Shown: positions 31,266-63,936 of the stretch, piece by piece
Numbering within the stretch: position 1 is the first letter of the stretch
Layout of the letters: each line of letters opens with the position of its first letter
NCBI GenBank assembly: GCA_032718475.1
Contig: JAUCBJ010000732.1
Coordinates: 62,001 to 126,000 of the forward strand
DNA from: Nemertoderma westbladi
Lineage: Eukaryota > Animalia > Xenacoelomorpha
Length of the DNA stretch: 64,000 nucleotides
Reading direction: 5' to 3'
Position numbers and translations under genes: made by a program
Notes under the pieces: model-generated
Seen by the model: only the letters and a program-made list of their open reading frames with translations
Databases searched by the model: none
Told to the model about the DNA's origin: nothing

Positions 31266-31315
31266 ATGTTTACTAGGCCTAAATGATTATCCCATTCAAA
31301 ATTCATATTTGTCAC

Positions 31316-31425: not shown

Positions 31426-31599
31426 AATCACTCATTAATAGTTTGCAGGTGATAGTTGATTGATTGATTAGCATGAATAATGCGTTGTCAAATACATACC
31501 AATTATTGAATGAAACAATAAACCTAACTGAATAAATAAAACTAAAAAAATTAAAGCAGTACTGTGTCAGTCATACGAAGGTTTATCCAACCTAAGTGT

Positions 31600-31931: not shown

Positions 31932-31933
31932 TT

Positions 31934-33328
31934 ATGGGTTACACTTACCTCTACAAAGTATGCTGTACACCCAGTATGGGTTACACTTACCTCTACAAAG
32001 TGTGCTGTACACCCAGTATGGGTTACACTTACCTCTACAAAGTGTGCTGTAGACCCAGTATGGGTTACACTTACCTCTACAAAGTATGCTGTACACCCAG
32101 TATGGGTTACACTTACCTCTACAAAGTTTGATGTACACCCAGTATGGGTTACACTTACCTCTACAAAGTGTGCTGTACACCCAGTATGGGTTACACTTAC
32201 CTCTACAAAGTATGCTGTACACCCAGTATGGGTTACACTTACCTCTACAAAGTGTGATGTACACCCAGTATGGGTTACACTTACCTCTACAAAGTGTGCT
32301 GTACACCCAGTATGGGTTACACTTACCTCTAGAAAGTATGCTGTACACCCAGTATGGGTTACACTTACCTCTACAAAGTGTGATGTACACCCAGTATGGG
32401 TTACACTTACCTCTACAAAGTGTGCTGTACACCCAGTATGGGTTACACTTACATCTACAAAGTGTGATGTACACCCAGTATGGGTTACACTTACCTCTAC
32501 AAAGTGTGCTGTACACCCAGTATGGGTTACACTTACCTCTACAAAGTATGCTGTACACCCAGTATGGGTTACACTTACCTCTACAAAGTGTGCTGTACAC
32601 CCAGTAAGGGTTACACTTACCTCTACAAAGTGTGCTGTACACCCAGTATGGGTTACACTTACCTCTACAAAGTATGCTGTACACCCAGTATGGGTTACAC
32701 TTACCTCTACAAAGTGTGATGTACACCCAGTATGGGTTACACTTACCTCTACAAAGTGTGCTGTACACCCAGTATGGGTTACACTTACCTCTACAAAGTG
32801 TGATGTACACCCAGTATGGGTTACACTTACCTCTACAAAGTGTGCTGTACACCCAGTATGGGTTACACTTACCTCTACAAAGTGTGATGTACACCCAGTA
32901 TGGGTTACACTTACCTCTACAAAGTGTGATGTACACCCAGTATGGGTTACACTTACCTCTACAAAGTGTGCTGTACACCCAGTATGGGTTACACTTACCT
33001 CTACAAAGTGTGATGTACACCCAGTATGGGTTACACTTACCTCTACAAAGTGTGCTGTCCACCCAGTAAGGGTTACACTTACCTCTACAAAGTGTGCTGT
33101 ACACCCAGTATGGGTTACACTTACCTCTACAAAGTGTGCTGTACACCCTGTATGGGTTACACTTACCTCTACAAAGTGTGATGTACACCCAGTATGGGTT
33201 ACACTTACCTCTACAAAGTGTGCTGTCCACCCAGTAAGGGTTACACTTACCTCTACAAAGTGTGCTGTACACCCAGTATGGGTTACACTTACCTCTACAA
33301 AGTGTGCTGTACACCCAGTAAGGGTTAC
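31934..33328 (-). repeat. 42-bp tandem array = last 36 nt of a GART exon + GTAAGT donor, 33 donor copies
   Basis: Unit GTAACCCATACTGGGTGTACAGCACACTTTGTAGAG|GTAAGT; donors at 33292 down to 31948 in 42-bp steps. Confidence 0.96.
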
Positions 33329-34299: not shown

Positions 34300-34430
34300 C
34301 TCGGTGGGTATGTTTGCATCTCTAGCCCTTCCTAAACCTTGAACCCCTTCCTTATTGGAGAATACGAGACGAATATCGTAGGCGCAATCGTGATTCTTTG
34401 TGTAGTCGATTATAGCTTGTAGATTAGTTC
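34300..34430 (-). CDS. GART: GART exon, start of transformylase domain (GTNLQAIID...VFSNKEGVQGLGRARDANIPTE)
   Basis: Not in the ORF track; hand-translated. Acceptor ttttgtttag|GA, donor GAG|gttagc; 131 bp, phases fit both neighbours. Confidence 0.92.
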
Positions 34431-34846: not shown

Positions 34847-35394
34847 CTGAACCGGAAATTAGAACAGCCAATTTCTTTTTACGAATGATCCTATTGGTTA
34901 GCGGGAGTGGCAGTTTATAGCTGTTATCCAATGAAGACTCTAGATTAGCGATTATGACGTCATTAGCAGGACGACGAACAACCGAGCCAATCACTGACGA
35001 GGAGATGTCGCCTTTCAGTGATTGTATTACAGTATCAACCACCGATTGGTCAACTATTAAAACAAACCCGACTCCACAGTTGAAGGTGCGAGCCATCTCG
35101 TTGGCTGGAATGTTGCCTAACTTGTACAAATAACCCAGTATCGGCGGAATGCGCCAGGCATTGGCGTCGAGATCTACAGCCAATGAGGGCGGCAGGATTC
35201 GTGGAATATTGTCGGTTAAACCGCCGCCAGTTATGTGCGCCGCCGCTTTTATGAGGCCCTTAGTGATCAACGGCAGTACTAGAGATACATACAGATAAGT
35301 TGGTGTGAGTAAAGTCTCGAATAAAGGTCGATCGGTTGGAGTTACCCCGGCAACAGAGTCACTGAGGCTCACTTTAGCGCATTCTAGAACCTTC
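34847..35394 (-). CDS. GART: GART exon, AIR synthetase C-terminal domain and linker
   Basis: LLTPT, AHITGGGLTDNIPRILP, EMARTFNCGVG, AVLISGSG; acceptor ttttgcag|G, donor TCAG|gtgcgt; 548 bp. Confidence 0.95.
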
Positions 35395-35731: not shown

Positions 35732-35915
35732 CTAACTAAGGAAAATCCGTTGCTATGGACCCCGGATGACGCTATTCCTATAACTGCGTCACCGGGCGTG
35801 ACGTCACTGGGTTCCTTCGGCAACACGAGGGACCGCTCAACCGCACCGACGGCGAATCCGGCTACATCGTAATCGCCGTCCCGGTACATTCCCGGCATCT
35901 CGGCCGTCTCGCCAC
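35732..35915 (-). CDS. GART: GART exon, AIR synthetase ([11 protein letters not shown]...[13 protein letters not shown]...[13 protein letters not shown])
   Basis: Hand-translated PurM motifs; acceptor cccgtttag|GT, donor AG|gtcagt; 184 bp, phase 1/2. Confidence 0.95.
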
Positions 35916-38900
35916 CTAAACGGGTGAGTAAAGAGCGGGAAATTCAAACACCATCTAGGGGACGTATATAGAAACACATACACCTAAACGGGTGAGTAAA
36001 GGGCGGGAAATTCAAACACCATCTAGGGGACATATATAGAAACACATACACCTAAACGGGTGAGTAAAGAGCGGTAAATTCAAACACCATCTAGGGGACG
36101 CATATAGAAACACATACACCTAAACGGGTGAGTAAAGAGCGGGAAATTCAAACACCATCTAGGGGACGCATATAGAAACACATACACCTAAACGGGTGAG
36201 TAAAGCGCGGGAAATTCAAACACCATCTAGGGGACGTATATAGAAACACATACACCTAAACGGGTGAGTAAAGAGCGGGAAATTCAAACACCATCTAGGG
36301 GACGCATATAGAAACACATACACCTAAACGGGTGAGTAAAGAGCGGGAAATTCAAACACCATCTAGGGGACGCATATAGAAACACATACACCGAAACGGG
36401 TGAGTAAAGAGCGGGAAATTCAAACACCATCTAGGGGACGCATATAGAAACACATACACCTAAACGGGTGAGTAAAGAGCGGGAAATTCAAACACCATCT
36501 AGGGGACGTTAATAGAAACACATACACCTAAACGGGTGAGTAAAGAGCGGGAAATTCAAACACCATCTAGGGGACGTATATAGAAACACATACACCGAAA
36601 CGGGTGAGTAAAGAGCGGGAAATTCAAACACAATCTAGGGGACGCATATAGAAACACATACACCGAAACGGGTGAGTAAAGAGCGAGACATTCAAACACC
36701 ATCTAGGGGACGTATATAGAAACACATACACCTAAACGGGTGAGTAAAGAGCGGGAAATTCAAACACCATCTAGGGGACATATATAGATACACATACACC
36801 GAAACGGGTGAGTAAAGAGCGGGAAATTCAAACACCATCTAGTGGACTAGAAACACATACACCGAAACGGGTGAGTAAAGAGCGGGAAATTCAAACACCA
36901 TCTAGGGGACGTATATAGAAACACATACACCTAAACGGGTGAGTAAAGAGCGGGAAATTCAAACACCATCTAGGGGACATATATAGATACACATACACCT
37001 AAACGGGTGAGTAAAGAGCGGTAAATTCAAACACCATCTAGGGGACGCATATAGAAACACATACACCTAAACGGGTGAGTAAAGAGCGGGAAATTCAAAC
37101 ACCATCTAGTGGACTAGAAACACATACACCGAAACGGGTGAGTAAAGAGCGGTAAATTCAAACACCATCTAGGGGACGTATATAGAAACACATACACCTA
37201 AACGGGTGAGTAAAGAGCGGGAAATTCAAGCACAATCAAGGGGACGTATATAGAAACACATACACCTAAACGGGTGAGTAAAGAGCGGTAAATTCAAACA
37301 CCATCTAGGGGACGTATATAGAAACACATACACCTAAACGGGTGAGTAAAGAGCGGGAAATTCAAGCACAATCAAGGGGACGTATATAGAAACACATACA
37401 CCTAAACGGGTGAGTAAAGAGCGGGAAATTCAAACACAATCTAGGGGACGCATATAGAAACACATACACCTAAACGGGTGAGTAAAGAGCGGGAAATTCA
37501 AACACCATCTAGGGGACGTTAATAGAAACACATACACCTAAACGGGTGAGTAAAGAGCGGGAAATTCAAACACCATCTAGGGGACGTATATAGAAACACA
37601 TACACCTAAACGGGTGAGTAAAGAGCGGGAAATTCAAACACCATCTAGGGGACGTATATAGAAACACATACACCTAAACGGGTGAGTAAAGAGCGAGACA
37701 TTCAAACACCATCTAGGACACGTATATAGAAACACATACACCTAAACGGGTGAGTAAAGAGCGGGAAATTCAAGCACAATCAAGGGGACGCATATAGAAA
37801 CACATACACCTAAACGGGTGAGTAAAGAGCGGTAAATTCAAACACCATCTAGGGGACGTATATAGAAACACATACACCTAAACGGGTGAGTAAAGAGCGG
37901 GAAATTCAAACACCATCTAGGGGACGTATATAGAAACACATACACCTAAACGGGTGAGTAAAGAGCGAGACATTCAAACACCATCTAGGACACGTATATA
38001 GAAACACATACACCTAAACGGGTGAGTAAAGGGCGGGAAATTCAAACACCATCTAGGGGACGTTAATAGAAACACATACACCTAAACGGGTGAGTAAAGA
38101 GCGAGACATTCAAACACCATCTAGGGGACGTTAATAGAAACACATACACCTAAACGGGTGAGTAAAGAGCGGGAAATTCAAACACCATCTAGGGGACGTA
38201 TATAGAAACACATACACCTAAACGGGTGAGTAAAGAGCGGGAAATTCAAACACCATCTAGGGGACGCTAATAGAAACACATACACCTAAACGGGTGAGTA
38301 AAGAGCGGGAAATTCAAACACCATCTAGGGGACGTTAATAGAAACACATACACCTAAACGGGTGAGTAAAGAGCGAGACATTCAAACACCATCTAGGGGA
38401 CGTATATAGAAACACATACACCGAAACGGGTGAGTAAAGAGCGGTAAATTCAAACACCATCTAGGGGACGTTAATAGAAACACATACACCTAAACGGGTG
38501 AGTAAAGAGCGAGACATTCAAACACCATCTAGGGGACGTATATAGAAACACATACACCTAAACGGGTGAGTAAAGAGCGGGAAATTCAAACACCATCTAG
38601 GGGACGCATATAGAAACACATACACCTAAACGGGTGAGTAAAGAGCGGGAAATTCAAACACCATCTAGGGGACGCATATAGAAACACATACACCGAAACG
38701 GGTGAGTAAAGAGCGGTAAATTCAAACACCATCTAGGGGACGTTAATAGAAACACATACACCTAAACGGGTGAGTAAAGAGCGGTAAATTCAAACACCAT
38801 CTAGGGGACGTTAATAGAAACACATACACCTAAACGGGTGAGTAAAGAGCGGGAAATTCAAACACCATCTAGGGGACGCATATAGAAACACATACACCGA

Positions 38901-41900
38901 AACGGGTGAGTAAAGAGCGGTAAATTCAAACACCATCTAGGGGACGTTAATAGAAACACATACACCTAAACGGGTGAGTAAAGATCGGTAAATTCAAACA
39001 CCATCTAGGGGACGTATATAGAAACACATACACCTAAACGGGTGAGTAAAGAGCGGCAAATTCAAACACCATCTAGGGGATGTTAATAGAAACACATACA
39101 CCTAAACGGGTGAGTAAAGGGCGGGAAATTCAAACACCATCTAGGGGACGTTAATAGAAACACATACACCTAAACGGGTGAGTAAAGAGCGAGACATTCA
39201 AACACCATCTAGGGGACGTATATAGAAACACATACACCTAAACGGGTGAGTAAAGAGCGGGAAATTCAAACACCATCTAGGGGATGTTAATAGAAACACA
39301 TACACCTAAACGGGTGAGTAAAGGGCGGGAAATTCAAACACCATCTAGGGGATGTTAATAGAAACACATACACCTAAACGGGTGAGTAAAGAGCGGGAAA
39401 TTCAAACACCATCTAGGGGACGCATATAGAAACACATACACCGAAACGGGTGAGTAAAGAGCGGTAAATTCAAACACCATCTAGGGGACGTTAATAGAAA
39501 CACATACACCTAAACGGGTGAGTAAAGAGCGGGAAATTCAAACACCATCTAGGGGACGTTAATAGAAACACATACACCTAAACGGGTGAGTAAAGGGCGG
39601 GAAATTCAAACACCATCTAGGGGACGCATATAGAAACACATACACCGAAACGGGTGAGTAAAGAGCGGTAAATTCAAACACCATCTAGGGGACGTTAATA
39701 GAAACACATACACCTAAACGGGTGAGTAAAGAGCGGGAAATTCAAACACCATCTAGGGGACGTATATAGAAACACATACACCGAAACGGGTGAGTAAAGA
39801 GCGGTAAATTCAAACACCATCTAGGGGACGTATATAGAAACACATACACCTAAACGGGTGAGTAAAGAGCGGGAAATTCAAGCACAATCAAGGGGACGTA
39901 TATAGAAACACATACACCTAAACGGGTGAGTAAAGAGCGGGAAATTCAAACACAATCTAGGGGACGCATATAGAAACACATACACCTAAACGGGTGAGTA
40001 AAGAGCGGGAAATTCAAACACCATCTAGGGGACGTTAATAGAAACACATACACCTAAACGGGTGAGTAAAGAGCGGGAAATTCAAACACCATCTAGGGGA
40101 CGTATATAGAAACACATACACCTAAACGGGTGAGTAAAGAGCGGGAAATTCAAACACCATCTAGGGGACGTATATAGAAACACATACACCTAAACGGGTG
40201 AGTAAAGAGCGAGACATTCAAACACCATCTAGGACACGTATATAGAAACACATACACCTAAACGGGTGAGTAAAGAGCGGGAAATTCAAGCACAATCAAG
40301 GGGACGCATATAGAAACACATACACCTAAACGGGTGAGTAAAGAGCGGTAAATTCAAACACCATCTAGGGGACGTATATAGAAACACATACACCTAAACG
40401 GGTGAGTAAAGAGCGGGAAATTCAAACACCATCTAGGGGACGTATATAGAAACACATACACCTAAACGGGTGAGTAAAGAGCGAGACATTCAAACACCAT
40501 CTAGGACACGTATATAGAAACACATACACCTAAACGGGTGAGTAAAGGGCGGGAAATTCAAACACCATCTAGGGGACGTTAATAGAAACACATACACCTA
40601 AACGGGTGAGTAAAGAGCGAGACATTCAAACACCATCTAGGGGACGTTAATAGAAACACATACACCTAAACGGGTGAGTAAAGAGCGGGAAATTCAAACA
40701 CCATCTAGGGGACGTATATAGAAACACATACACCTAAACGGGTGAGTAAAGAGCGGGAAATTCAAACACCATCTAGGGGACGTTAATAGAAACACATACA
40801 CCTAAACGGGTGAGTAAAGAGCGGGAAATTCAAACACCATCTAGGGGACGTTAATAGAAACACATACACCTAAACGGGTGAGTAAAGAGCGAGACATTCA
40901 AACACCATCTAGGGGACGTATATAGAAACACATACACCGAAACGGGTGAGTAAAGAGCGGTAAATTCAAACACCATCTAGGGGACGTTAATAGAAACACA
41001 TACACCTAAACGGGTGAGTAAAGAGCGAGACATTCAAACACCATCTAGGGGACGTATATAGAAACACATACACCTAAACGGGTGAGTAAAGAGCGGGAAA
41101 TTCAAACACCATCTAGGGGACGCATATAGAAACACATACACCTAAACGGGTGAGTAAAGAGCGGGAAATTCAAACACCATCTAGGGGACGCATATAGAAA
41201 CACATACACCGAAACGGGTGAGTAAAGAGCGGTAAATTCAAACACCATCTAGGGGACGTTAATAGAAACACATACACCTAAACGGGTGAGTAAAGAGCGG
41301 TAAATTCAAACACCATCTAGGGGACGTTAATAGAAACACATACACCTAAACGGGTGAGTAAAGAGCGGGAAATTCAAACACCATCTAGGGGACGCATATA
41401 GAAACACATACACCGAAACGGGTGAGTAAAGAGCGGTAAATTCAAACACCATCTAGGGGACGTTAATAGAAACACATACACCTAAACGGGTGAGTAAAGA
41501 TCGGTAAATTCAAACACCATCTAGGGGACGTATATAGAAACACATACACCTAAACGGGTGAGTAAAGAGCGGCAAATTCAAACACCATCTAGGGGATGTT
41601 AATAGAAACACATACACCTAAACGGGTGAGTAAAGGGCGGGAAATTCAAACACCATCTAGGGGACGTATATAGAAACACATACACCTAAACGGGTGAGTA
41701 AAGAGCGGGAAATTCAAACACCATCTAGGGGACGTATATAGAAACACATACACCTAAACGGGTGAGTAAAGAGCGGGAAATTCAAACACCATCTAGGGGA
41801 CGTATATAGAAACACATACACCTAAACGGGTGAGTAAAGGGCGGGAAATTCAAACACCATCTAGGGGATGTTAATAGAAACACATACACCTAAACGGGTG

Positions 41901-44900
41901 AGTAAAGAGCGGGAAATTCAAACACCATCTAGGGGACGCATATAGAAACACATACACCGAAACGGGTGAGTAAAGAGCGGTAAATTCAAACACCATCTAG
42001 GGGACGTTAATAGAAACACATACACCTAAACGGGTGAGTAAAGAGCGGGAAATTCAAACACCATCTAGGGGACGTTAATAGAAACACATACACCTAAACG
42101 GGTGAGTAAAGAGCGGGAAATTCAAACACCATCTAGGGGACGCATATAGAAACACATACACCGAAACGGGTGAGTAAAGAGCGGTAAATTCAAACACCAT
42201 CTAGGGGACGTTAATAGAAACACATACACCTAAACGGGTGAGTAAAGAGCGGGAAATTCAAACACCATCTAGGGGACGTATATAGAAACACATACACCGA
42301 AACGGGTGAGTAAAGAGCGGTAAATTCAAACACCATCTAGGGGACGTTAATAGAAACACATACACCTAAACGGGTGAGTAAAGAGCGAGACATTCAAACA
42401 CCATCTAGGGGACGTTAATAGAAACACATACACCTATACGGGTGAGTAAAGAGCGGGAAATTCAAACACCATCTAGGGGATGTTAATAGAAACACATACA
42501 CCTAAACGGGTGAGTAAAGAGCGAGACATTCAAACACCATCTAGGGGACGTATATAGAAACACATACACCTAAACGGGTGAGTAAAGAGCGGGAAATTCA
42601 AACACCATCTAGGGGACGCATATAGAAACACATACACCGAAACGGGTGAGTAAAGAGCGGGAAATTCAAACACCATCTAGGGGACGTATATAGATACACA
42701 TACACCTAAACGGGTTAGTAAAGAGCGGTAAATTCAAACACCATCTAGGGGACGTATATAGAAACACATACACCTAAACGGGTGAGTAAAGAGCGAGACA
42801 TTCAAACACCATCTAGGGGACGTATATAGAAACACATACACCTAAACGGGTGAGTAAAGAGCGGGAAATTCAAACACCATCTAGGGGACGCATATAGAAA
42901 CACATACACCTAAACGGGTGAGTAAAGAGCGGGAAATTCAAACACCATCTAGGGGACGCATATAGAAACACATACACCGAAACGGGTGAGTAAAGAGCGG
43001 GAAATTCAAACACCATCTAGGGGACGTATATAGAAACACATACACCTAAACGGGTGAGTAAAGAGCGGGAAATTCAAACACCATCTAGGGGACGTATATA
43101 GAAACACATACACCTAAACGGGTGAGTAAAGAGCGGGAAATTCAAACACCATCTAGGGGACGTTAATAGATACACATACACCTAAACGGGTGAGTAAAGA
43201 GCGGGAAATTCAAACACCATCTAGGGGATGTTAATAGAAACACATACACCTAAACGGGTGAGTAAAGAGCGGGAAATTCAAACACCATCTAGGGGACGCA
43301 TATAGAAACACATACACCGAAACGGGTGAGTAAAGAGCGGGAAATTCAAACACCATCTAGGGGACGTATATAGATACACATACACCTAAACGGGTGAGTA
43401 AAGAGCGGGAAATTCAAACACCATCTAGGGGATGTTAATAGAAACACATACACCTAAACGGGTGAGTAAAGAGCGGGAAATTCAAACACCATCTAGGGGA
43501 CGCATATAGAAACACATACACCTAAACGGGTGAGTAAAGAGCGGGAAATTCAAACACCATCTAGGGGATGTTAATAGAAACACATACACCTAAACGGGTG
43601 AGTAAAGAGCGGGAAATTCAAACACCATCTAGGGGACGCATATAGAAACACATACACCGAAACGGGTGAGTAAAGAGCGGGAAATTCAAACACCATCTAG
43701 GGGACGTATATAGATACACATACACCTAAACGGGTGAGTAAAGAGCGGGAAATTCAAACACCATCTAGGGGATGTTAATAGAAACACATACACCTAAACG
43801 GGTGAGTAAAGAGCGGGAAATTCAAACACCATCTAGGGGACGCATATAGAAACACATACACCTAAACGGGTGAGTAAAGAGCGGGAAATTCAAACACCAT
43901 CTAGGGGACGCATATAGAAACACATACACCTAAACGGGTGAGTAAAGAGCGGTAAATTCAAACACAATCTAGGGGACATATATAGATACACATACACCTA
44001 AACGGGTGAGTAAAGAGCGGGAAATTCAAACACCATCTAGGGGACGTATATAGATACACATACACCTAAACGGGTGAGTAAAGAGAGGGAAATTCAAACA
44101 CCATCTAGGGGACGCATATAGAAACACATACACCGAAACGGGTGAGTAAAGAGCGGGAAATTCAAACACCATCTAGGGGACGTATATAGAAACACATACA
44201 CCTAAACGGGTGAGTAAAGAGCGGGAAATTCAAACACCATCTAGGGGACGTATATAGAAACACATACCCCTAAACGGGTGAGTAAAGAGCGGGAAATTCA
44301 AACACCATCTAGGGGACGTATATAGAAACACATACACCTAAACGGGTGAGTAAAGAGCGGGAAATTCAAACACCATCTAGGGGACGTATATAGAAACACA
44401 TACACCTAAACGGGTGAGTAAAGAGCGGGAAATTCAAACACCATCTAGGGGATGTTAATAGAAACACATACACCTAAACGGGTGAGTAAAGAGCGGGAAA
44501 TTCAAACACCATCTAGGGGATGTTAATAGAAACACATACACCTAAACGGGTGAGTAAAGAGCGGGAAATTCAAACACCATCTAGGGGACGCATATAGAAA
44601 CACATACACCGAAACGGGTGAGTAAAGAGCGGTAAATTCAAACACCATCTAGGGGACGTTAATAGAAACACATACACCTAAACGGGTGAGTAAAGAGCGG
44701 GAAATTCAAACACCATCTAGGGGACGTTAATAGAAACACATACACCTAAACGGGTGAGTAAAGAGCGGGAAATTCAAACACCATCTAGGGGACGCATATA
44801 GAAACACATACACCGAAACGGGTGAGTAAAGAGCGGTAAATTCAAACACCATCTAGGGGACGTTAATAGAAACACATACACCTAAACGGGTGAGTAAAGA

Positions 44901-47900
44901 GCGGGAAATTCAAACACCATCTAGGGGACGTATATAGAAACACATACACCTAAACGGGTGAGTAAAGAGCGAGACATTCAAACACCATCTAGGGGACGTT
45001 AATAGAAACACATACACCTATACGGGTGAGTAAAGAGCGGGAAATTCAAACACCATCTAGGGGATGTTAATAGAAACACATACACCTAAACGGGTGAGTA
45101 AAGAGCGAGACATTCAAACACCATCTAGGGGACGTATATAGAAACACATACACCTAAACGGGTGAGTAAAGAGCGGGAAATTCAAACACCATCTAGGGGA
45201 CGCATATAGAAACACATACACCGAAACGGGTGAGTAAAGAGCGGGAAATTCAAACACCATCTAGGGGACGTATATAGATACACATACACCTAAACGGGTG
45301 AGTAAAGAGCGGTAAATTCAAACACCATCTAGGGGACGTATATAGAAACACATACACCTAAACGGGTGAGTAAAGAGCGAGACATTCAAACACCATCTAG
45401 GGGACGTATATAGAAACACATACACCTAAACGGGTGAGTAAAGAGCGGGAAATTCAAACACCATCTAGGGGACGCATATAGAAACACATACACCTAAACG
45501 GGTGAGTAAAGAGCGGGAAATTCAAACACCATCTAGGGGACGTTAATAGAAACACATACACCTAAACGGGTGAGTAAAGAGCGGGAAATTCAAACACCAT
45601 CTAGGGGACGTATATAGATACACATACACCTAAACGGGTGAGTAAAGAGCGGGAAATTCAAACACCATCTAGGGGACGTATATAGAAACACATACACCGA
45701 AACGGGTGAGTAAAGAGCGGGAAATTCAAACACCATCTAGGGGACGTTAATAGAAACACATACACCTAAACGGGTGAGTAAAGAGCGGGAAATTCAAACA
45801 CCATCTAGGGGACGTATATAGATACACATACACCTAAACGGGTGAGTAAAGAGCGGGAAATTCAAACACCATCTAGGGGATGTTAATAGAAACACATACA
45901 CCTAAACGGGTGAGTAAAGAGCGGGAAATTCAAACACCATCTAGGGGACGCATATAGAAACACATACACCGAAACGGGTGAGTAAAGAGCGGGAAATTCA
46001 AACACCATCTAGGGGACGTATATAGATACACATACACCTAAACGGGTGAGTAAAGAGCGGGAAATTCAAACACCATCTAGGGGATGTTAATAGAAACACA
46101 TACACCTAAACGGGTGAGTAAAGAGCGGGAAATTCAAACACCATCTAGGGGACGCATATAGAAACACATACACCTAAACGGGTGAGTAAAGGGCGGTAAA
46201 TTCAAACACAATCTAGGGGACATATATAGATACACATACACCTAAACGGGTGAGTAAAGAGCGGGAAATTCAAACACCATCTAGGGGACGTATATAGATA
46301 CACATACACCTAAACGGGTGAGTAAAGAGAGGGAAATTCAAACACCATCTAGGGGACGCATATAGAAACACATACACCGAAACGGGTGAGTAAAGAGCGG
46401 GAAATTCAAACACCATCTAGGGGACGTATATAGAAACACATACACCTAAACGGGTGAGTAAAGAGCGGGAAATTCAAACACCATCTAGGGGACGTATATA
46501 GAAACACATACCCCTAAACGGGTGAGTAAAGAGCGGGAAATTCAAACACCATCTAGGGGACGTATATAGAAACACATACACCTAAACGGGTGAGTAAAGA
46601 GCGGGAAATTCAAACACCATCTAGGGGACGCATATAGAAACACATACACCTAAACGGGTGAGTAAAGAGCGGGAAATTCAAACACCATCTAGGGGACGCA
46701 TATAGAAACACATACACCGAAACGGGTGAGTAAAGAGCGGGAAATTCAAACACCATCTAGGGGACGTATATAGATATACATACACCTAAACGGGTGAGTA
46801 AAGAGCGGGAAATTCAAACACCATCTAGGGGACGCATATAGATATACATACACCGAAACGGGTGAGTAAAGAGCGGGAAATTCAAACACAATCTAGGGGA
46901 CGCATATAGATATACATACACCTAAACGGGTGAGTAAAGATCGGGAAATTCAAACACAATCTAGGGGACGCATATAGATATACATACACCGAAACGGGTG
47001 AGTAAAGAGCAGGAAATTCAAACACCATCTAGGGGACGTATATAGAAACACATACACCGAAACGGGTGAGTAAAGAGCGGGAAATTCAAACACCATCTAG
47101 GGGACGTATATAGATACACATACACCTAAACGGGTGAGTAAAGAGCGGGAAATTCAAACACCATCTAGTGGACGTATATAGAAACACATACACCTAAACT
47201 GGTGAGTAAAGAGCGGTAAATTCAAACACCATCTAGGGGACGTTAATAGAAACACATACACCTAAACGGGTGAGTAAAGAGCGGGAAATTCAAACACCAT
47301 CTAGGGGACGTTAATAGAAACACATACACCTAAACGGGTGAGTAAAGAGCGGGAAATTCAAACACCATCTAGTGGACGTATATAGAAACACATACACCTA
47401 AACGGGTGAGTAAAGAGCGGGAAATTCAAGCACAATCAAGGGGACGTATATAGAAACACATACACCTAAACGGGTGAGTAAAGAGCGGGAAATTCAAACA
47501 CCATCTAGGGGACGCATATAGATATACATACACCGAAACGGGTGAGTAAAGAGCGGGAAATTCAAACACAATCTAGGGGACGCATATAGATATACATACA
47601 CCTAAACGGGTGAGTAAAGATCGGGAAATTCAAACACAATCTAGGGGACGCATATAGATATACATACACCGAAACGGGTGAGTAAAGAGCAGGAAATTCA
47701 AACACCATCTAGGGGACGTATATAGAAACACATACACCGAAACGGGTGAGTAAAGAGCGGGAAATTCAAACACCATCTAGGGGACGTATATAGAAACACA
47801 TACACCTAAACGGGTGAGTAAAGAGCGGGAAATTCAAACACCATCTAGGGGACGTTAATAGAAACACATACACCTAAACGGGTGAGTAAAGAGCGGGAAA

Positions 47901-50900
47901 TTCAAACACCATCTAGGGGACGTATATAGATACACATACACCTAAACGGGTGAGTAAAGAGCGGGAAATTCAAACACCATCTAGTGGACGTATATAGAAA
48001 CACATACACCTAAACTGGTGAGTAAAGAGCGGTAAATTCAAACACCATCTAGGGGACGTTAATAGAAACACATACACCTAAACGGGTGAGTAAAGAGCGG
48101 GAAATTCAAACACAATCTAGGGGACGCATATAGAAACACATACACCTAAACGGGTGAGTAAAGAGCGGGAAATTCAAACACCATCTAGGGGACGCATATA
48201 GAAACACATACACCTAAACGGGTGAGTAAAGAGCGGGAAATTCAAACACCATCTAGGGGACGTAATATAGATACACATACACCGAAACGGGTGAGTAAAG
48301 AGCGGGAAATTCAAACACAATCTAGGGGACGTTAATAGAAACACATACACCTAAACGGGTGAGTAAAGAGCGGGAAATTCAAACACCATCTAGTGGACGT
48401 ATATAGAAACACATACACCTAAACGGGTGAGTAAAGAGCGAGACATTCAAACACCATCTAGGGGACGCCTATAGAAACACATACACCTAAACGGGTGAGT
48501 AAAGAGCGGGAAATTCAAACACCATCTAGGGGACGCATATAGAAACACATACACCGAAACGGGTGAGTAAAGAGCGGGAAATTCAAACACAATCTAGGGG
48601 ACGTTAATAGAAACACATACACCTAAACGGGTGACTAAAGAGCGGGAAATTCAAACACCATCTAGTGGACGTATATAGAAACACATACACCTAAACGGGT
48701 GAGTAAAGAGTGGGAAATTCAAACACCATCTAGGGGACGTTAATAGAAACACATACACCTAAACGGGTGAGTAAAGAGCGAGACATTCAAACACCATCTA
48801 GGGGACGCATATAGAAACACATACACCTAAACGGGTGAGTAAAGAGCGGGAAATTCAAACACCATCTAGGGGACGCATATAGAAACACATACACCTAAAC
48901 GGGTGAGTAAAGAGCGGGAAATTCAAACACCATCTAGGGGACGTATATAGATACACATACACCGAAACGGGTGAGTAAAGAGCGGGAAATTCAAACACAA
49001 TCTAGGGGACGTTAATAGAAACACATACACCTAAACGGGTGAGTAAAGAGCGGGAAATTCAAACACCATCTAGTGGACGTATATAGAAACACATACACCT
49101 AAACGGGTGAGTAAAGAGCGAGACATTCAAACACCATCTAGGGGACGTATATAGAAACACATACACCTAAACGGGTGAGTAAAGAGCGGGAAATTCAAAC
49201 ACCATCTAGGGGACGCATATAGAAACACATACACCGAAACGGGTGAGTAAAGAGCGGGAAATTCAAACACCATCTAGGGGACGTTAATAGAAACACATAC
49301 ACCTAAACGGGTGACTAAAGAGCGGGAAATTCAAACACCATCTAGTGGACGTATATAGAAACACATACACCTAAACGGGTGAGTAAAGAGTGGGAAATTC
49401 AAACACCATCTAGGGGACGTTAATAGAAACACATACACCTAAACGGGTGAGTAAAGAGCGAGACATTCAAACACCATCTAGGGGACGCATATAGAAACAC
49501 ATACACCTAAACGGGTGAGTAAAGAGCGGGAAATTCAAACACCATCTAGGGGACGCATATAGAAACACATACACCTAAACGGGTGAGTAAAGAGCGGGAA
49601 ATTCAAACACCATCTAGGGGACGTATATAGATACACATACACCGAAACGGGTGAGTAAAGAGCGGGAAATTCAAACACAATCTAGGGGACGTTAATAGAA
49701 ACACATACACCTAAACGGGTGAGTAAAGAGCGGGAAATTCAAACACCATCTAGTGGACGTATATAGAAACACATACACCTAAACGGGTGAGTAAAGAGCG
49801 AGACATTCAAACACCATCTAGGGGACGCCTATAGAAACACATACACCTAAACGGGTGAGTAAAGAGCGGGAAATTCAAACACCATCTAGGGGACGCATAT
49901 AGAAACACATACACCTAAACGGGTGAGTAAAGAGCGGGAAATTCAAACACCATCTAGGGGATGTTAATAGAAACACATACACCTAAACGGGTGAGTAAAG
50001 AGCGAGACATTCAAACACCATCTAGGGGACGTTAATAGAAACACATACACCTAAACGGGTGAGTAAAGAGCGGGAAATTCAAACACCATCTAGGGGACGT
50101 ATATAGAAACACATACACCGAAACGGGTGAGTAAAGAGCGGGAAATTCAAACACCATCTAGTGGACGTATATAGAAACACATACACCTAAACGGGTGAGT
50201 AAAGAGCGAGACATTCAAACACCATCTAGGGGACGCCTATAGAAACACATACACCTAAACGGGTGAGTAAAGAGCGGGAAATTCAAACACCATCTAGGGG
50301 ACGCATATAGATACACATACACCGAAACGGGTGAGTAAAGAGCGGGAAATTCAAACACAATCTAGGGGACGTTAATAGAAACACATACACCTAAACGGGT
50401 GAGTAAAGAGCGGGAAATTCAAACACCATCTAGTGGACGTATATAGAAACACATACACCTAAACGGGTGAGTAAAGAGCGAGACATTCAAACACCATCTA
50501 GGGGACGCCTATAGAAACACATACACCTAAACGGGTGAGTAAAGAGCGGGAAATTCAAACACCATCTAGGGGACGCATATAGAAACACATACACCTAAAC
50601 GGGTGAGTAAAGAGCGGGAAATTCAAACACCATCTAGGGGATGTTAATAGAAACACATACACCTAAACGGGTGAGTAAAGAGCGAGACATTCAAACACCA
50701 TCTAGGGGACGTTAATAGAAACACATACACCTAAACGGGTGAGTAAAGAGCGGGAAATTCAAACACCATCTAGGGGACGTATATAGATACACATACACCT
50801 AAACGGGTGAGTAAAGAGCGGGAAATTCAAACACCATCTAGTGGACGTATATAGAAACACATACACCTAAACTGGTGAGTAAAGAGCGGTAAATTCAAAC

Positions 50901-53900
50901 ACCATCTAGGGGACGTTAATAGAAACACATACACCTAAACGGGTGAGTAAAGAGCGGGAAATTCAAACACCATCTAGGGGACGTTAATAGAAACACATAC
51001 ACCTAAACGGGTGAGTAAAGAGCGGGAAATTCAAACACCATCTAGTGGACGTATATAGAAACACATACACCTAAACGGGTGAGTAAAGAGCGAGACATTC
51101 AAACACCATCTAGGGGACGCCTATAGAAACACATACACCTAAACGGGTGAGTAAAGAGCGGGAAATTCAAACACCATCTAGGGGACGCATATAGAAACAC
51201 ATACACCTAAACGGGTGAGTAAAGAGCGGGAAATTCAAACACCATCTAGGGGATGTTAATAGAAACACATACACCTAAACGGGTGAGTAAAGAGCGAGAC
51301 ATTCAAACACCATCTAGGGGACGCCTATAGAAACACATACACCTAAACGGGTGAGTAAAGAGCGGGAAATTCAAACACCATCTAGGGGACGCATATAGAA
51401 ACACATACACCGAAACGGGTGAGTAAAGAGCGGGAAATTCAAACACAATCTAGGGGACGTTAATAGAAACACATACACCTAAACGGGTGACTAAAGAGCG
51501 GGAAATTCAAACACCATCTAGTGGACGTATATAGAAACACATACACCTAAACGGGTGAGTAAAGAGTGGGAAATTCAAACACCATCTAGGGGACGTTAAT
51601 AGAAACACATACACCTAAACGGGTGAGTAAAGAGCGAGACATTCAAACACCATCTAGGGGACGCATATAGAAACACATACACCTAAACGGGTGAGTAAAG
51701 AGCGGGAAATTCAAACACCATCTAGGGGACGCATATAGAAACACATACACCTAAACGGGTGAGTAAAGAGCGGGAAATTCAAACACCATCTAGGGGACGT
51801 ATATAGATACACATACACCGAAACGGGTGAGTAAAGAGCGGGAAATTCAAACACAATCTAGGGGACGTTAATAGAAACACATACACCTAAACGGGTGAGT
51901 AAAGAGCGGGAAATTCAAACACCATCTAGTGGACGTATATAGAAACACATACACCTAAACGGGTGAGTAAAGAGCGAGACATTCAAACACCATCTAGGGG
52001 ACGCCTATAGAAACACATACACCTAAACGGGTGAGTAAAGAGCGGGAAATTCAAACACCATCTAGGGGACGCATATAGAAACACATACACCTAAACGGGT
52101 GAGTAAAGAGCGGGAAATTCAAACACCATCTAGGGGATGTTAATAGAAACACATACACCTAAACGGGTGAGTAAAGAGCGAGACATTCAAACACCATCTA
52201 GGGGACGTTAATAGAAACACATACACCTAAACGGGTGAGTAAAGAGCGGGAAATTCAAACACCATCTAGGGGACGTATATAGAAACACATACACCGAAAC
52301 GGGTGAGTAAAGAGCGGGAAATTCAAACACCATCTAGTGGACGTATATAGAAACACATACACCTAAACGGGTGAGTAAAGAGCGAGACATTCAAACACCA
52401 TCTAGGGGACGCCTATAGAAACACATACACCTAAACGGGTGAGTAAAGAGCGGGAAATTCAAACACCATCTAGGGGACGCATATAGAAACACATACACCG
52501 AAACGGGTGAGTAAAGAGCGGGAAATTCAAACACAATCTAGGGGACGTTAATAGAAACACATACACCTAAACGGGTGACTAAAGAGCGGGAAATTCAAAC
52601 ACAATCTAGTGGACGTATATAGAAACACATACACCTAAACGGGTGAGTAAAGAGTGGGAAATTCAAACACCATCTAGGGGACGTTAATAGAAACACATAC
52701 ACCTAAACGGGTGAGTAAAGAGCGAGACATTCAAACACCATCTAGGGGACGCATATAGAAACACATACACCTAAACGGGTGAGTAAAGAGCGGGAAATTC
52801 AAACACCATCTAGGGGACGCATATAGAAACACATACACCTAAACGGGTGAGTAAAGAGCGGGAAATTCAAACACCATCTAGGGGACGTATATAGATACAC
52901 ATACACCGAAACGGGTGAGTAAAGAGCGGGAAATTCAAACACAATCTAGGGGACGTTAATAGAAACACATACACCTAAACGGGTGAGTAAAGAGCGGGAA
53001 ATTCAAACACCATCTAGTGGACGTATATAGAAACACATACACCTAAACGGGTGAGTAAAGAGCGAGACATTCAAACACCATCTAGGGGACGCCTATAGAA
53101 ACACATACACCTAAACGGGTGAGTAAAGAGCGGGAAATTCAAACACCATCTAGGGGACGCATATAGAAACACATACACCTAAACGGGTGAGTAAAGAGCG
53201 GGAAATTCAAACACCATCTAGGGGATGTTAATAGAAACACATACACCTAAACGGGTGAGTAAAGAGCGAGACATTCAAACACCATCTAGGGGACGTTAAT
53301 AGAAACACATACACCTAAACGGGTGAGTAAAGAGCGGGAAATTCAAACACCATCTAGGGGACGTATATAGATACACATACACCTAAACGGGTGAGTAAAG
53401 AGCGGGAAATTCAAACACCATCTAGTGGACGTATATAGAAACACATACACCTAAACTGGTGAGTAAAGAGCGGTAAATTCAAACACCATCTAGGGGACGT
53501 TAATAGAAACACATACACCTAAACGGGTGAGTAAAGAGCGGGAAATTCAAACACCATCTAGGGGACGTTAATAGAAACACATACACCTAAACGGGTGAGT
53601 AAAGAGCGGGAAATTCAAACACCATCTAGTGGACGTATATAGAAACACATACACCTAAACGGGTGAGTAAAGAGCGAGACATTCAAACACCATCTAGGGG
53701 ACGCCTATAGAAACACATACACCTAAACGGGTGAGTAAAGAGCGGGAAATTCAAACACCATCTAGGGGACGCATATAGAAACACATACACCTAAACGGGT
53801 GAGTAAAGAGCGGGAAATTCAAACACCATCTAGGGGATGTTAATAGAAACACATACACCTAAACGGGTGAGTAAAGAGCGAGACATTCAAACACCATCTA

Positions 53901-56900
53901 GGGGACGTTAATAGAAACACATACACCTAAACGGGTGAGTAAAGAGCGGGAAATTCAAACACCATCTAGGGGACGTATATAGAAACACATACACCGAAAC
54001 GGGTGAGTAAAGAGCGGGAAATTCAAACACCATCTAGTGGACGTATATAGAAACACATACACCTAAACGGGTGAGTAAAGAGTGGGAAATTCAAACACCA
54101 TCTAGGGGACGTTAATAGAAACACATACACCTAAACGGGTGAGTAAAGAGCGAGACATTCAAACACCATCTAGGGGACGCATATAGAAACACATACACCT
54201 AAACGGGTGAGTAAAGAGCGGGAAATTCAAACACCATCTAGGGGACGCATATAGAAACACATACACCTAAACGGGTGAGTAAAGAGCGGGAAATTCAAAC
54301 ACCATCTAGGGGACGTATATAGATACACATACACCGAAACGGGTGAGTAAAGAGCGGGAAATTCAAACACAATCTAGGGGACGTTAATAGAAACACATAC
54401 ACCTAAACGGGTGAGTAAAGAGCGGGAAATTCAAACACCATCTAGTGGACGTATATAGAAACACATACACCTAAACGGGTGAGTAAAGAGCGAGACATTC
54501 AAACACCATCTAGGGGACGCCTATAGAAACACATACACCTAAACGGGTGAGTAAAGAGCGGGAAATTCAAACACCATCTAGGGGACGCATATAGAAACAC
54601 ATACACCTAAACGGGTGAGTAAAGAGCGGGAAATTCAAACACCATCTAGGGGATGTTAATAGAAACACATACACCTAAACGGGTGAGTAAAGAGCGAGAC
54701 ATTCAAACACCATCTAGGGGACGTTAATAGAAACACATACACCTAAACGGGTGAGTAAAGAGCGGGAAATTCAAACACCATCTAGGGGACGTATATAGAT
54801 ACACATACACCTAAACGGGTGAGTAAAGAGCGGGAAATTCAAACACCATCTAGTGGACGTATATAGAAACACATACACCTAAACTGGTGAGTAAAGAGCG
54901 GTAAATTCAAACACCATCTAGGGGACGTTAATAGAAACACATACACCTAAACGGGTGAGTAAAGAGCGGGAAATTCAAACACCATCTAGGGGACGTTAAT
55001 AGAAACACATACACCTAAACGGGTGAGTAAAGAGCGGGAAATTCAAACACCATCTAGTGGACGTATATAGAAACACATACACCTAAACGGGTGAGTAAAG
55101 AGCGGGAAATTCAAGCACAATCAAGGGGACGTATATAGAAACACATACACCTAAACGGGTGAGTAAAGAGCGGGAAATTCAAACACCATCTAGGGGACGC
55201 ATATAGATATACATACACCGAAACGGGTGAGTAAAGAGCGGGAAATTCAAACACAATCTAGGGGACGCATATAGATATACATACACCTAAACGGGTGAGT
55301 AAAGATCGGGAAATTCAAACACAATCTAGGGGACGCATATAGATATACATACACCGAAACGGGTGAGTAAAGAGCAGGAAATTCAAACACCATCTAGGGG
55401 ACGTATATAGAAACACATACACCGAAACGGGTGAGTAAAGAGCGGGAAATTCAAACACCATCTAGGGGACGTATATAGAAACACATACACCTAAACGGGT
55501 GAGTAAAGAGCGGGAAATTCAAACACCATCTAGGGGACGTTAATAGAAACACATACACCTAAACGGGTGAGTAAAGAGCGGGAAATTCAAACACCATCTA
55601 GGGGACGTATATAGATACACATACACCTAAACGGGTGAGTAAAGAGCGGGAAATTCAAACACCATCTAGTGGACGTATATAGAAACACATACACCTAAAC
55701 TGGTGAGTAAAGAGCGGTAAATTCAAACACCATCTAGGGGACGTTAATAGAAACACATACACCTAAACGGGTGAGTAAAGAGCGGGAAATTCAAACACAA
55801 TCTAGGGGACGCATATAGAAACACATACACCTAAACGGGTGAGTAAAGAGCGGGAAATTCAAACACCATCTAGGGGACGCATATAGAAACACATACACCT
55901 AAACGGGTGAGTAAAGAGCGGGAAATTCAAACACCATCTAGGGGACGTATATAGATACACATACACCGAAACGGGTGAGTAAAGAGCGGGAAATTCAAAC
56001 ACAATCTAGGGGACGTTAATAGAAACACATACACCTAAACGGGTGAGTAAAGAGCGGGAAATTCAAACACCATCTAGTGGACGTATATAGAAACACATAC
56101 ACCTAAACGGGTGAGTAAAGAGCGAGACATTCAAACACCATCTAGGGGACGCCTATAGAAACACATACACCTAAACGGGTGAGTAAAGAGCGGGAAATTC
56201 AAACACCATCTAGGGGACGCATATAGAAACACATACACCGAAACGGGTGAGTAAAGAGCGGGAAATTCAAACACAATCTAGGGGACGTTAATAGAAACAC
56301 ATACACCTAAACGGGTGACTAAAGAGCGGGAAATTCAAACACCATCTAGTGGACGTATATAGAAACACATACACCTAAACGGGTGAGTAAAGAGTGGGAA
56401 ATTCAAACACCATCTAGGGGACGTTAATAGAAACACATACACCTAAACGGGTGAGTAAAGAGCGAGACATTCAAACACCATCTAGGGGACGCATATAGAA
56501 ACACATACACCTAAACGGGTGAGTAAAGAGCGGGAAATTCAAACACCATCTAGGGGACGCATATAGAAACACATACACCTAAACGGGTGAGTAAAGAGCG
56601 GGAAATTCAAACACCATCTAGGGGACGTATATAGATACACATACACCGAAACGGGTGAGTAAAGAGCGGGAAATTCAAACACAATCTAGGGGACGTTAAT
56701 AGAAACACATACACCTAAACGGGTGAGTAAAGAGCGGGAAATTCAAACACCATCTAGTGGACGTATATAGAAACACATACACCTAAACGGGTGAGTAAAG
56801 AGCGAGACATTCAAACACCATCTAGGGGACGCCTATAGAAACACATACACCTAAACGGGTGAGTAAAGAGCGGGAAATTCAAACACCATCTAGGGGACGC

Positions 56901-59900
56901 ATATAGAAACACATACACCTAAACGGGTGAGTAAAGAGCGGGAAATTCAAACACCATCTAGGGGATGTTAATAGAAACACATACACCTAAACGGGTGAGT
57001 AAAGAGCGAGACATTCAAACACCATCTAGGGGACGTTAATAGAAACACATACACCTAAACGGGTGAGTAAAGAGCGGGACATTCAAACACCATCTAGGGG
57101 ACGTTAATAGAAACACATACACCTAAACGGGTGAGTAAAGAGCGAGACATTCAAACACCATCTAGGGGACGCATATAGAAACACATACACCTAAACGGGT
57201 GAGTAAAGAGCGGGAAATTCAAACACCATCTAGGGGACGCATATAGAAACACATACACCTAAACGGGTGAGTAAAGAGCGGGAAATTCAAACACCATCTA
57301 GGGGACGTATATAGATACACATACACCGAAACGGGTGAGTAAAGAGCGGGAAATTCAAACACAATCTAGGGGACGTTAATAGAAACACATACACCTAAAC
57401 GGGTGAGTAAAGAGCGGGAAATTCAAACACCATCTAGTGGACGTATATAGAAACACATACACCTAAACGGGTGAGTAAAGAGCGAGACATTCAAACACCA
57501 TCTAGGGGACGCCTATAGAAACACATACACCTAAACGGGTGAGTAAAGAGCGGGAAATTCAAACACCATCTAGGGGACGCATATAGAAACACATACACCT
57601 AAACGGGTGAGTAAAGAGCGGGAAATTCAAACACCATCTAGGGGACGCATATAGAAACACATACACCTAAACGGGTGAGTAAAGAGCGGGAAATTCAAAC
57701 ACCATCTAGTGGACGTATATAGAAACACATACACCTAAACGGGTGAGTAAAGAGCGAGACATTCAAACACCATCTAGGGGACGCCTATAGAAACACATAC
57801 ACCTAAACGGGTGAGTAAAGAGCGGGAAATTCAAACACCATCTAGGGGACGCATATAGAAACACATACACCGAAACGGGTGAGTAAAGAGCGGGAAATTC
57901 AAACACAATCTAGGGGACGTTAATAGAAACACATACACCTAAACGGGTGAGTAAAGAGCGGGAAATTCAAACACCATCTAGTGGACGTATATAGAAACAC
58001 ATACACCTAAACGGGTGAGTAAAGAGTGGGAAATTCAAACACCATCTAGGGGACGTTAATAGAAACACATACACCTAAACGGGTGAGTAAAGAGCGAGAC
58101 ATTCAAACACCATCTAGGGGACGCATATAGAAACACATACACCTAAACGGGTGAGTAAAGAGCGGGAAATTCAAACACCATCTAGGGGACGCATATAGAA
58201 ACACATACACCTAAACGGGTGAGTAAAGAGCGGGAAATTCAAACACCATCTAGGGGACGTATATAGATACACATACACCTAAACGGGTGAGTAAAGAGCG
58301 GGAAATTCAAACACCATCTAGGGGACGTTAATAGAAACACATACACCTAAACGGGTGAGTAAAGAGCGGGAAATTCAAACACCATCTAGTGGACGTATAT
58401 AGAAACACATACACCTAAACGGGTGAGTAAAGAGCGGGAAATTCAAACACCATCTAGGGGACGTATATAGATACACATACACCGAAACGGGTGAGTAAAG
58501 AGCGGGAAATTCAAACACCATCTAGGGGACGTTAATAGAAACACATACACCTAAACGGGTGAGTAAAGAGCGGGAAATTCAAACACCATCTAGGGGACGT
58601 ATATAGATACACATACACCGAAACGGGTGAGTAAAGAGCGGGAAATTCAAACACAATCTAGGGGACGTTAATAGAAACACATACACCTAAACGGGTGAGT
58701 AAAGAGCGGGAAATTCAAACACCATCTAGTGGACGTATATAGAAACACATACACCTAAACGGGTGAGTAAAGAGCGAGACATTCAAACACCATCTAGGGG
58801 ACGCCTATAGAAACACATACACCTAAACGGGTGAGTAAAGAGCGGGAAATTCAAACACCATCTAGGGGACGCATATAGAAACACATACACCTAAACGGGT
58901 GAGTAAAGAGCGGGAAATTCAAACACCATCTAGGGGATGTTAATAGAAACACATACACCTAAACGGGTGAGTAAAGAGCGAGACATTCAAACACCATCTA
59001 GGGGACGTTAATAGAAACACATACACCTAAACGGGTGAGTAAAGAGCGGGAAATTCAAACACCATCTAGGGGACGTTAATAGAAACACATACACCTAAAC
59101 GGGTGAGTAAAGAGCGAGACATTCAAACACCATCTAGGGGACGCATATAGAAACACATACACCTAAACGGGTGAGTAAAGAGCGGGAAATTCAAACACCA
59201 TCTAGGGGACGCATATAGAAACACATACACCTAAACGGGTGAGTAAAGAGCGGGAAATTCAAACACCATCTAGGGGACGTATATAGATACACATACACCG
59301 AAACGGGTGAGTAAAGAGCGGGAAATTCAAACACAATCTAGGGGACGTTAATAGAAACACATACACCTAAACGGGTGAGTAAAGAGCGGGAAATTCAAAC
59401 ACCATCTAGTGGACGTATATAGAAACACATACACCTAAACGGGTGAGTAAAGAGCGAGACATTCAAACACCATCTAGGGGACGCCTATAGAAACACATAC
59501 ACCTAAACGGGTGAGTAAAGAGCGGGAAATTCAAACACCATCTAGGGGACGCATATAGAAACACATACACCTAAACGGGTGAGTAAAGAGCGGGAAATTC
59601 AAACACCATCTAGGGGACGTATATAGAAACACATACACCTAAACGGGTGAGTAAAGAGCGGAAATTCAAACACCATCTAGGGGACGTTAATAGAAACACA
59701 TACACCTAAACGGGTGAGTAAAGAGCGGGAAATTCAAACACCATCTAGGGGACGTATATAGAAACACATACACCGAAACGGGTGAGTAAAGAGCGGGAAA
59801 TTCAAACACCATCTAGTGGACGTATATAGAAACACATACACCTAAACGGGTGAGTAAAGAGCGAGACATTCAAACACCATCTAGGGGACGCCTATAGAAA

Positions 59901-63737: not shown

Positions 63738-63936
63738 CAATCAAGGCACATCCGCAATCTTTGCAAGCCTTGGCGACGCTTTTAACTACAGACGTTGCCA
63801 CGGCTACATCCAATCGGGAGCAGGCGTAGTAATCAAGGAAGAATAAGGGTTCGGCCCCCACAGTGAGGATGTCGTTGACGCACATAGCAACCAAATCCTG
63901 CCCAATGGTGTCATGGAAACCGGCCTCCAACGCAAT
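63738..63936 (-). CDS. GART: GART exon, AIR synthetase N-terminal domain ([24 protein letters not shown]...[10 protein letters not shown]...CALIG)
   Basis: PurM motifs; acceptor tgctgtag|ATT, donor ATTG|gtgggt; phase-1 join to 35915 restores [11 protein letters not shown]. Confidence 0.95.

What the first reader, a model, noticed from the sequence alone, without database searches (positions are those of the whole stretch)
31934..33328. 33 in-frame tandem copies of a GART exon end plus perfect GTAAGT donor
Seen: the unit is exactly the last 36 coding nt plus the 6-nt donor. All 33 GTAAGT appear intact, 42 is a multiple of 3, and there is no stop in the GART frame. Use of donor n would insert (n-1) x 14 aa (VSVTHTGCTAHFVE). 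Established: in GAR transformylase this strand (TGCTVHFV) directly precedes the loop with the catalytic Asp (VDAG/LDGG). Inference: either the spliceosome reliably picks the most upstream of 33 equal donors, or a ladder of frame-preserving isoforms with repeated beta-strand inserts is made.
Basis: partly seen in the sequence, partly recalled or inferred. Interest (0 to 1): 0.8.

Follow-up and report, generated by a model that had tools for sequence, protein, structure and literature searches.

The report
Splice-donor minisatellite in animal GART intron
The end of one exon of a purine-synthesis gene and its splice signal are repeated 33 times in a row, but the assembled transcripts use only the first signal and make the normal enzyme junction, so this is likely a harmless repeat of a kind already known from human and lancelet genes.

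Summary
Observation confirmed: 33 tandem 42-nt units (exon end plus GTAAGT), all donors intact, frame open. The array is real: its unit stands at about 15-22 times single-copy depth in DNA runs of two samples. The ladder reading is not supported. Two runs that behave as RNA (two studies; one shares its sample with array-bearing DNA) leave the genome at donor 1 and read on into the conserved next exon, VEVDAGAIIS; no RNA contig lies on units 2-4. Contigs drop rare isoforms, so minor use of later donors is not excluded. Intact donors and the open frame need no selection (P 0.26 and 0.88), and 8 of 9 variant alleles change amino acids. This is a junction-spanning minisatellite like human F7 intron 7, IFI6, CBS and lancelet 'mirages'; the scan has noted the kind before (46 findings, at least 19 genomes). 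Extra: the same gene has a 27.8-kb intron made of about 406 acceptor copies, and the last one is used. The final GART exon is not in the window.

The parts
31933..33328 (-). 42-nt minisatellite: 33 full units (36 nt exon end + GTAAGT) and a 10-nt partial unit; unit 1 is the real exon end and donor, units 2-33 are intronic
   Evidence: DNA depth
33293..33547 (-). GART exon (255 nt) coding most of the GAR transformylase core up to HFVE
   Evidence: covered end to end by RNA-like contig
33287..33292 (-). donor 1 (GAG|GTAAGT), the donor in use
   Evidence: loose end at 33291 in runs X4 and X5, reading V-E-V-D-A-G-A-I-I-S in frame
31943..33286 (-). 32 downstream pseudo-donor units, no RNA contig on units 2-4 (the only ones laid)
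34300..34430 (-). GART exon (131 nt), start of the transformylase domain
   Evidence: joints 33544/34297 and 34429/34846 in X4; frame check
34847..35394 (-). GART exon (548 nt), AIRS C-terminal domain
35732..35915 (-). GART exon (184 nt) whose acceptor is the last copy of the 68-nt array
35913..63671 (-). 68-nt satellite spanning the acceptor (branch-point-like CTCAC, pyrimidines, AG, first 3 exon bases): 406 units counted, 334 with AG intact; fills a 27,822-nt intron
63738..63936 (-). GART exon (199 nt, AIRS N-terminal part) upstream of the 27.8-kb intron

Best explanation
A 42-nt piece spanning the end of a GART exon and its splice donor is repeated 33 times in the intron, the assembled transcripts splice at the first donor into the normal next exon, and the array is likely a neutral minisatellite whose other 32 donors are largely ignored. 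Origin (inferred): slippage or unequal exchange between the exonic decamer that starts the unit and a 9/10 identical decamer just behind the donor (still visible as the partial 34th unit) would give exactly this unit and would explain why 29 of 32 copies carry the non-exonic base at position 8; later unequal exchanges spread it. Site choice (inferred): the exon is defined from its upstream acceptor to the nearest donor, so the copy next to the exon wins; the same rule fits the gene's acceptor array, where the last of 334 intact copies, again the one next to the exon, is used. A leak to donor 2 or later would keep the frame, would put 14 residues per unit between the strand and the Asp144 loop and would likely give inactive enzyme.
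For: Shown: X4 contig (1336 nt, depth 547.8) runs unbroken through three GT-AG joints and leaves the window at 33291; X4 and X5 give the same 30-nt loose end there, which reads VEVDAGAIIS in frame; X4 depth in bin 33245-33334 (267.8) equals 44/90 x 547.8, so nothing lies on unit 2, and bins 33161-33288 are 0 for X4 and X5. X5 is the same sample as DNA runs X2/X3, which carry the array. No coding constraint on the copies: 8 of 9 variant alleles are non-synonymous against the exonic unit; 7 of 32 copies lose the His found in 117 of 117 aligned homologs (117 of 120 had the motif); the His at unit position 3 is in 0 of 117. No excess protection of donors or frame (P 0.26, 0.88). The window holds several other arrays (16, 29, 63, 68 nt and a coding 42-nt one), so tandem expansion is common here. 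Published precedent: PMC1557585, PMC3087553, PMC3902484.
Against: Only contigs were available, and these come from a simplified graph that drops rare variants (tool text; PMC12424806, passages), so the share of later donors is unbounded below 'dominant'. The deep run X4 is from a sample whose DNA was not seen, so that individual could lack the array; X5, which shares a sample with array-bearing DNA, has depth 5 only. Only units 2-4 were laid. In IFI6 and CBS the second and third donors are used (PMC1557585, Introduction), in F7 perfect-consensus pseudo-sites drew splicing (Discussion), and this donor matches the consensus at 8 of 9 places, the best of the five donors seen in the gene. The frame is kept, so leak products would escape decay. 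The tool lists X4 and X5 as 'DNA?'; that they are RNA is my reading of their exon-only cover and spliced joints.
Confidence: 0.82

Rival explanations
1. The array makes an abundant or regulated ladder of frame-preserving GART isoforms with 14-residue strand inserts that tune or switch off the transformylase activity.
For: 33 of 33 donors intact and identical in the intron part, frame open; tandem AGGT arrays do give a spliced ladder in human UBC (PMC10809524, abstract and section 7); IFI6 and CBS use extra donors (PMC1557585, Introduction).
Against: No RNA contig on units 2-4 and an unbroken donor-1 contig at depth 548; copies drift at invariant residues; intact donors and open frame are expected by chance.
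Confidence: 0.05
2. The repeated AG|GT junctions are used as stepping stones: later donors or acceptors are used first, and the retained units (which begin GT and end AG) are cut out in a second step, so the mature mRNA is normal but the path is recursive. The 68-nt array (TTTAG|GTG) would be some 330 ratchet points across a 27.8-kb intron.
For: Both units contain AG|GT; removal of whole units would restore the exact mRNA; the 68-nt unit carries a branch-point-like motif and pyrimidine run in 391 of 406 copies; dual-specific AGGT sites are enriched in tandem-repeat genes (PMC10809524, abstract).
Against: No intermediate seen (contigs cannot show them). In the 42-nt unit two other AGs lie before the one needed, with only a short pyrimidine run. 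The donor rebuilt at a 68-nt unit (TTG|GTGTAT) is weak, and 72 of 406 copies have lost the AG, which fits drift.
Confidence: 0.08
3. The array is an assembly artefact or private to one haplotype.
For: The final GART exon is missing from the 33 kb downstream, which could mean a misjoin nearby; X1 may be the source of the window.
Against: A 72-nt cyclic contig of the unit stands at depth 358 (X1) and 460 (X3, another sample and study) against 19-31 for single-copy flank; a 33-copy array predicts a ratio of 15.9 and 14.8-21.8 is seen. X3's exon contig carries three other letters than the window and still breaks at the array. Units differ by recurring variants.
Confidence: 0.03

Closest known systems
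Human F7 intron 7 37-bp VNTR (Borensztajn et al. 2006, PMC1557585; abstract, Introduction and Discussion read)
   Same: First unit spans the exon-intron boundary; identical donors repeated in the intron; only the most upstream one used.
   Different: F7 has 5-9 copies with 4 exonic bases; here 33 copies with 36 exonic bases, every step keeps the frame, and the donor is near-consensus; a non-mammalian animal of unidentified group.
IFI6 (6-16; 25 pseudo-sites), CBS intron 13 (15-20 units), LMNB2, PDGF intron 4 (as cited in the Introduction of PMC1557585; original papers not seen)
   Same: Donor-spanning minisatellites with copy numbers of the same order; LMNB2 and PDGF use only the authentic donor.
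   Different: IFI6 and CBS also use two further donors; such minor use is not seen here but could not be excluded.
Lancelet 'mirages' (Adh3, globins BflGb6/BflGb9, troponin C, PGBD5): PMC3087553 section 16 read, PMC3902484 passage read; the original Adh3 paper was not held
   Same: Tandem duplications of exon-intron boundaries on both the donor and the acceptor side, units of 10-160 bp, normal splicing unaffected.
   Different: Copy numbers given for the globins are 3-6; this gene has 33 donor copies and about 406 acceptor copies (27.8 kb). Length instability, typical of mirages, was not tested.
Human UBC dual-specific splice-site array (PMC10809524; abstract and section 7 read)
   Same: Tandem units separated by AG|GT, frame kept whichever site is used.
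   Different: UBC units are whole functional ubiquitins and a ladder is seen; here units are fragments of a catalytic domain, drift freely, and no ladder is seen.

Membership tests
Junction-spanning minisatellite (F7 IVS7 type / mirage) | Head-to-tail repeat whose terminal unit contains the real exon-intron boundary | tested here: met
   Unit 1 = 33328-33287 holds the exon end and the donor in use
Junction-spanning minisatellite (F7 IVS7 type / mirage) | Further units repeat the splice signal inside the intron | tested here: met
   32 of 32 further GTAAGT intact
Junction-spanning minisatellite (F7 IVS7 type / mirage) | Main mRNA uses the authentic, exon-adjacent site | tested here: met
   Contigs of X4 and X5; contig-level only
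Junction-spanning minisatellite (F7 IVS7 type / mirage) | Copy number varies between alleles or cells | tested here: inconclusive
   Depth ratios imply roughly 33-39 (X1) and 31-45 (X3) copies; too coarse to show variation
Junction-spanning minisatellite (F7 IVS7 type / mirage) | Pseudo-sites become active when the first site is mutated | not testable with these tools
   Needs a minigene
Spliced ladder array (UBC type) | Mature transcripts with variable unit number | tested here: not met
   No RNA contig on units 2-4; donor-1 contig unbroken; rare forms would be missed
Spliced ladder array (UBC type) | Units conserved as protein | tested here: not met
   8 of 9 variant alleles non-synonymous, invariant His lost in 7 of 32 copies
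Trifunctional GART (GARS-AIRS-GART) | AIRS and formyltransferase domains in one spliced reading frame | tested here: met
   Five exons join to 439 codons without a stop; Pfam AIRS_C and Formyl_trans_N; GARS part lies outside the window
Trifunctional GART (GARS-AIRS-GART) | Final exon with the catalytic Asp loop present in the locus | tested here: inconclusive
   Present in RNA contigs but not found in window 1-33292

The most novel reading that the evidence does not exclude
One housekeeping gene carries 33 perfect donors and about 330 intact AG|GT acceptors, and the spliceosome walks through them recursively or leaks into a frame-preserving ladder that sets the level of active GAR transformylase by repeat number; the 27.8-kb intron built almost wholly from its own acceptor would then be a ratchet track, not junk.
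Probability: 0.08. Interest if true: 0.65.

Novelty: new member of a known kind. Interest (0 to 1): 0.2.

Why it matters
As it stands it is one more, fairly large, example of a described oddity. Its modest value is as a natural experiment: in one gene both a donor array and a very large acceptor array are resolved in favour of the copy next to the exon, even though the first intact acceptor lies about 157 nt from the upstream donor and the one used lies 27.8 kb away; that fits exon definition and is hard to square with first-come choice of the acceptor. Because unit 1 is coding, array turnover could also carry damaging variants into the enzyme. If a regulated ladder or recursive path were shown, repeat number would become a dial on purine synthesis.

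Tried and rejected
No whole genome is held for this window, so no genome-wide count of junction arrays and no search for the last exon elsewhere. No listed holder was on record as RNA; X4 and X5 were recognised as RNA-like only from their cover and joints. The last GART exon was sought by motif scan, by tblastn with 16 homologs and 116 C-terminal tails (best unrelated hit E 0.026) and by a 25-nt probe with up to 3 mismatches: nothing in the window; the 30-nt probe found nothing in metagenome contigs. The organism could not be placed: best hits 73% (GART exon, unnamed) and 34-35% (ABCC4-like); it is an animal-like genome, group unknown. No Rfam match in 28200-36200, no tRNA. Selection on donors or frame was tested and rejected. 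The original lancelet Adh3 paper was not held and is cited through PMC3087553 and PMC3902484. Paper searches for GART + minisatellite + intron, for the CBS VNTR and for a giant acceptor satellite returned 0 papers in this library; one search returned three, of which one (PMC10809524) was read in part and two were seen only as listings. No structure was predicted: the RNA result made it unnecessary. Catalytic role of Asp144 is recalled, not from a call. No supplements were read; those of the cited papers may hold further cases.

Full report
Observation. On the minus strand, 33328-31943 holds 33 units of 42 nt at exact spacing, each ending in GTAAGT, followed by a 10-nt partial unit. Unit 1 is the last 36 nt of a 255-nt exon (33547-33293) plus its donor. 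The exon encodes the core of GAR transformylase (Pfam E 2e-26; human GART chain E 1e-30, ending at residue 139-140). The GART frame is open through the array, so each further donor would add 14 residues. There are 10 unit types; 11 of 33 equal the consensus and only unit 18 equals the exonic unit.

Gene model. Five exons (63936-63738, 35915-35732, 35394-34847, 34430-34300, 33547-33293) join to 439 codons without a stop, all with GT-AG ends; introns are 27,822, 337, 416 and 752 nt (homology). Two predicted proteins from other sources run on into non-homologous sequence right after HFVE-V (P0003, P0007), which suggests that this intron position is old (inference).

Is the array real? Six public runs were listed, five holding part of the stretch, from three studies. 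In DNA runs the bin over units 1-2 has depth 297-401 against about 19-31 on single-copy flank. A 72-nt cyclic contig of the unit has depth 358 in X1 (possibly the source) and 460 in X3 (another sample and study). A 33-copy array predicts a mean word multiplicity of 15.9; the observed ratios are 15.9-18.8 and 14.8-21.8. The tool warns that depth is no copy number, so this shows presence and rough size only.

Which donor is used? X4, listed as 'DNA?', covers exons only and shows three GT-AG joints at the modelled introns, so I read it as RNA. Its 1336-nt contig (depth 547.8) leaves the window at 33291 with 566 further letters. X5 (same sample as X2/X3, depth 5-8) has loose ends at both edges of the exon, identical to those of X4. 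The loose end at 33291, read after the two shared bases GT, translates as VEVDAGAIIS, the loop that follows the strand in homologs; the Asp falls five residues after human Val139, at 144 (catalytic role recalled). X4's depth in bin 33245-33334 is 267.8, exactly 44/90 of 547.8, and units 2-4 have depth 0 in both runs. A donor-2 isoform or retained intron would give the same 72-nt contig that the DNA runs show and would branch the graph; neither is seen. Limits: contigs come from a simplified graph (PMC12424806, two passages), rare isoforms are dropped, X4's individual was not seen as DNA, X5 is shallow, and only units 2-4 were laid.

Is there selection on the copies? No sign. Eight of 42 sites vary; the chance that none falls in the six donor bases is 0.26 and that none makes a stop 0.88. 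Against the exonic unit, 8 of 9 variant alleles change the residue. Among 117 homologs with the motif (of 120), the His of HFV is invariant, yet 7 of 32 copies change it; 29 of 32 copies have His at a position where 0 of 117 homologs do. The window has many other tandem arrays, so expansion is a local habit.

Mechanism. Shown: tandem unit structure; donor 1 in the assembled transcripts. Inferred: origin by slippage between the exonic decamer and a 9/10 identical decamer behind the donor, which survives as the partial unit and would explain the position-8 difference (a plain early mutation is the alternative); choice by exon definition or oriented scanning from the exon. The gene offers a second case. 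Its 27,822-nt intron is about 65 unique bases plus a 68-nt satellite spanning the acceptor; 406 units were counted, 334 with AG and 72 with CG, 391 with the same branch-point-like motif. In both arrays the copy next to the exon wins.

What is known. PMC1557585 (abstract, Introduction, Discussion) describes the F7 intron 7 VNTR, where only the most upstream of 5-9 identical donors is used, and lists IFI6 (25 pseudo-sites, two also used), CBS (15-20 units, two also used), LMNB2 and PDGF (authentic only). PMC3087553 (section 16) and PMC3902484 (passage) describe lancelet 'mirages' on donor and acceptor sides that leave splicing normal. PMC2812944 (passages) covers repeats at exon-intron boundaries of human paralogs. 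PMC10809524 (abstract, section 7) gives the ladder precedent, UBC. The finding meets the three testable features of the F7/mirage kind and fails the two of the UBC kind. Searches found no paper on this GART case or on a giant acceptor satellite in the held library. Earlier scan notes list 46 such findings in at least 19 genomes; they were read after the papers were found and were not checked.

Open point. The last GART exon is not in the 33,292 bases downstream of donor 1, a stretch that holds a TOG-domain gene on the other strand, an ABCC4-like gene on the same strand and retroelement remains. Either the intron exceeds 33 kb with nested genes or the assembly is misjoined at one of the arrays; this could not be tested.

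Verdict. Interest 0.2.

Noticed in passing
window 35913-63671 (-): A 68-nt satellite made from this gene's own splice acceptor, about 406 copies (334 with AG intact), turns a short intron into 27.8 kb; the RNA-like contig uses the last copy. Larger than any acceptor-side case I saw in the papers read.
   Followed up: partly
window 1-31932: The final GART exon, present in RNA contigs, is absent from the 33 kb downstream, which holds two other genes: giant intron with nested genes, or a misjoin.
   Followed up: partly
window 28689-29560 and 31340-31421: 16-nt repeats in inverted orientation flank a 63-nt array (29891-31265); looks like a foldback-type element with an internal minisatellite.
   Followed up: partly
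window 34085-34245: A very high-copy interspersed element inside a GART intron (summed depth 70,000-630,000 in four runs).
   Followed up: no
window 23961-28283 (+): A 1440-codon open frame with a weak TOG-domain hit (E 7e-5) and an internal coding 42-nt repeat (25063-26260, 28.5 copies); a 29-nt array of 193 copies (18353-23942) ends about 50 nt before its likely acceptor.
   Followed up: no
window 217-4011 (-): ABCC4-like transporter almost wholly in one 1264-codon open frame, only 34-35% identical to its best hits: an intron-poor gene of a divergent animal lineage.
   Followed up: partly
window 8764-10964 (+) and 16767-18295 (-): Broken remains with DUF1759 and aspartyl-protease hits, likely Pao/BEL-type retroelement fragments (family name from recall).
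   Followed up: no
window 34120-35930: Runs X2 and X3 of one sample give contigs with 3 and 33 differences from the window over this stretch, suggesting two haplotypes about 2% apart.
   Followed up: no
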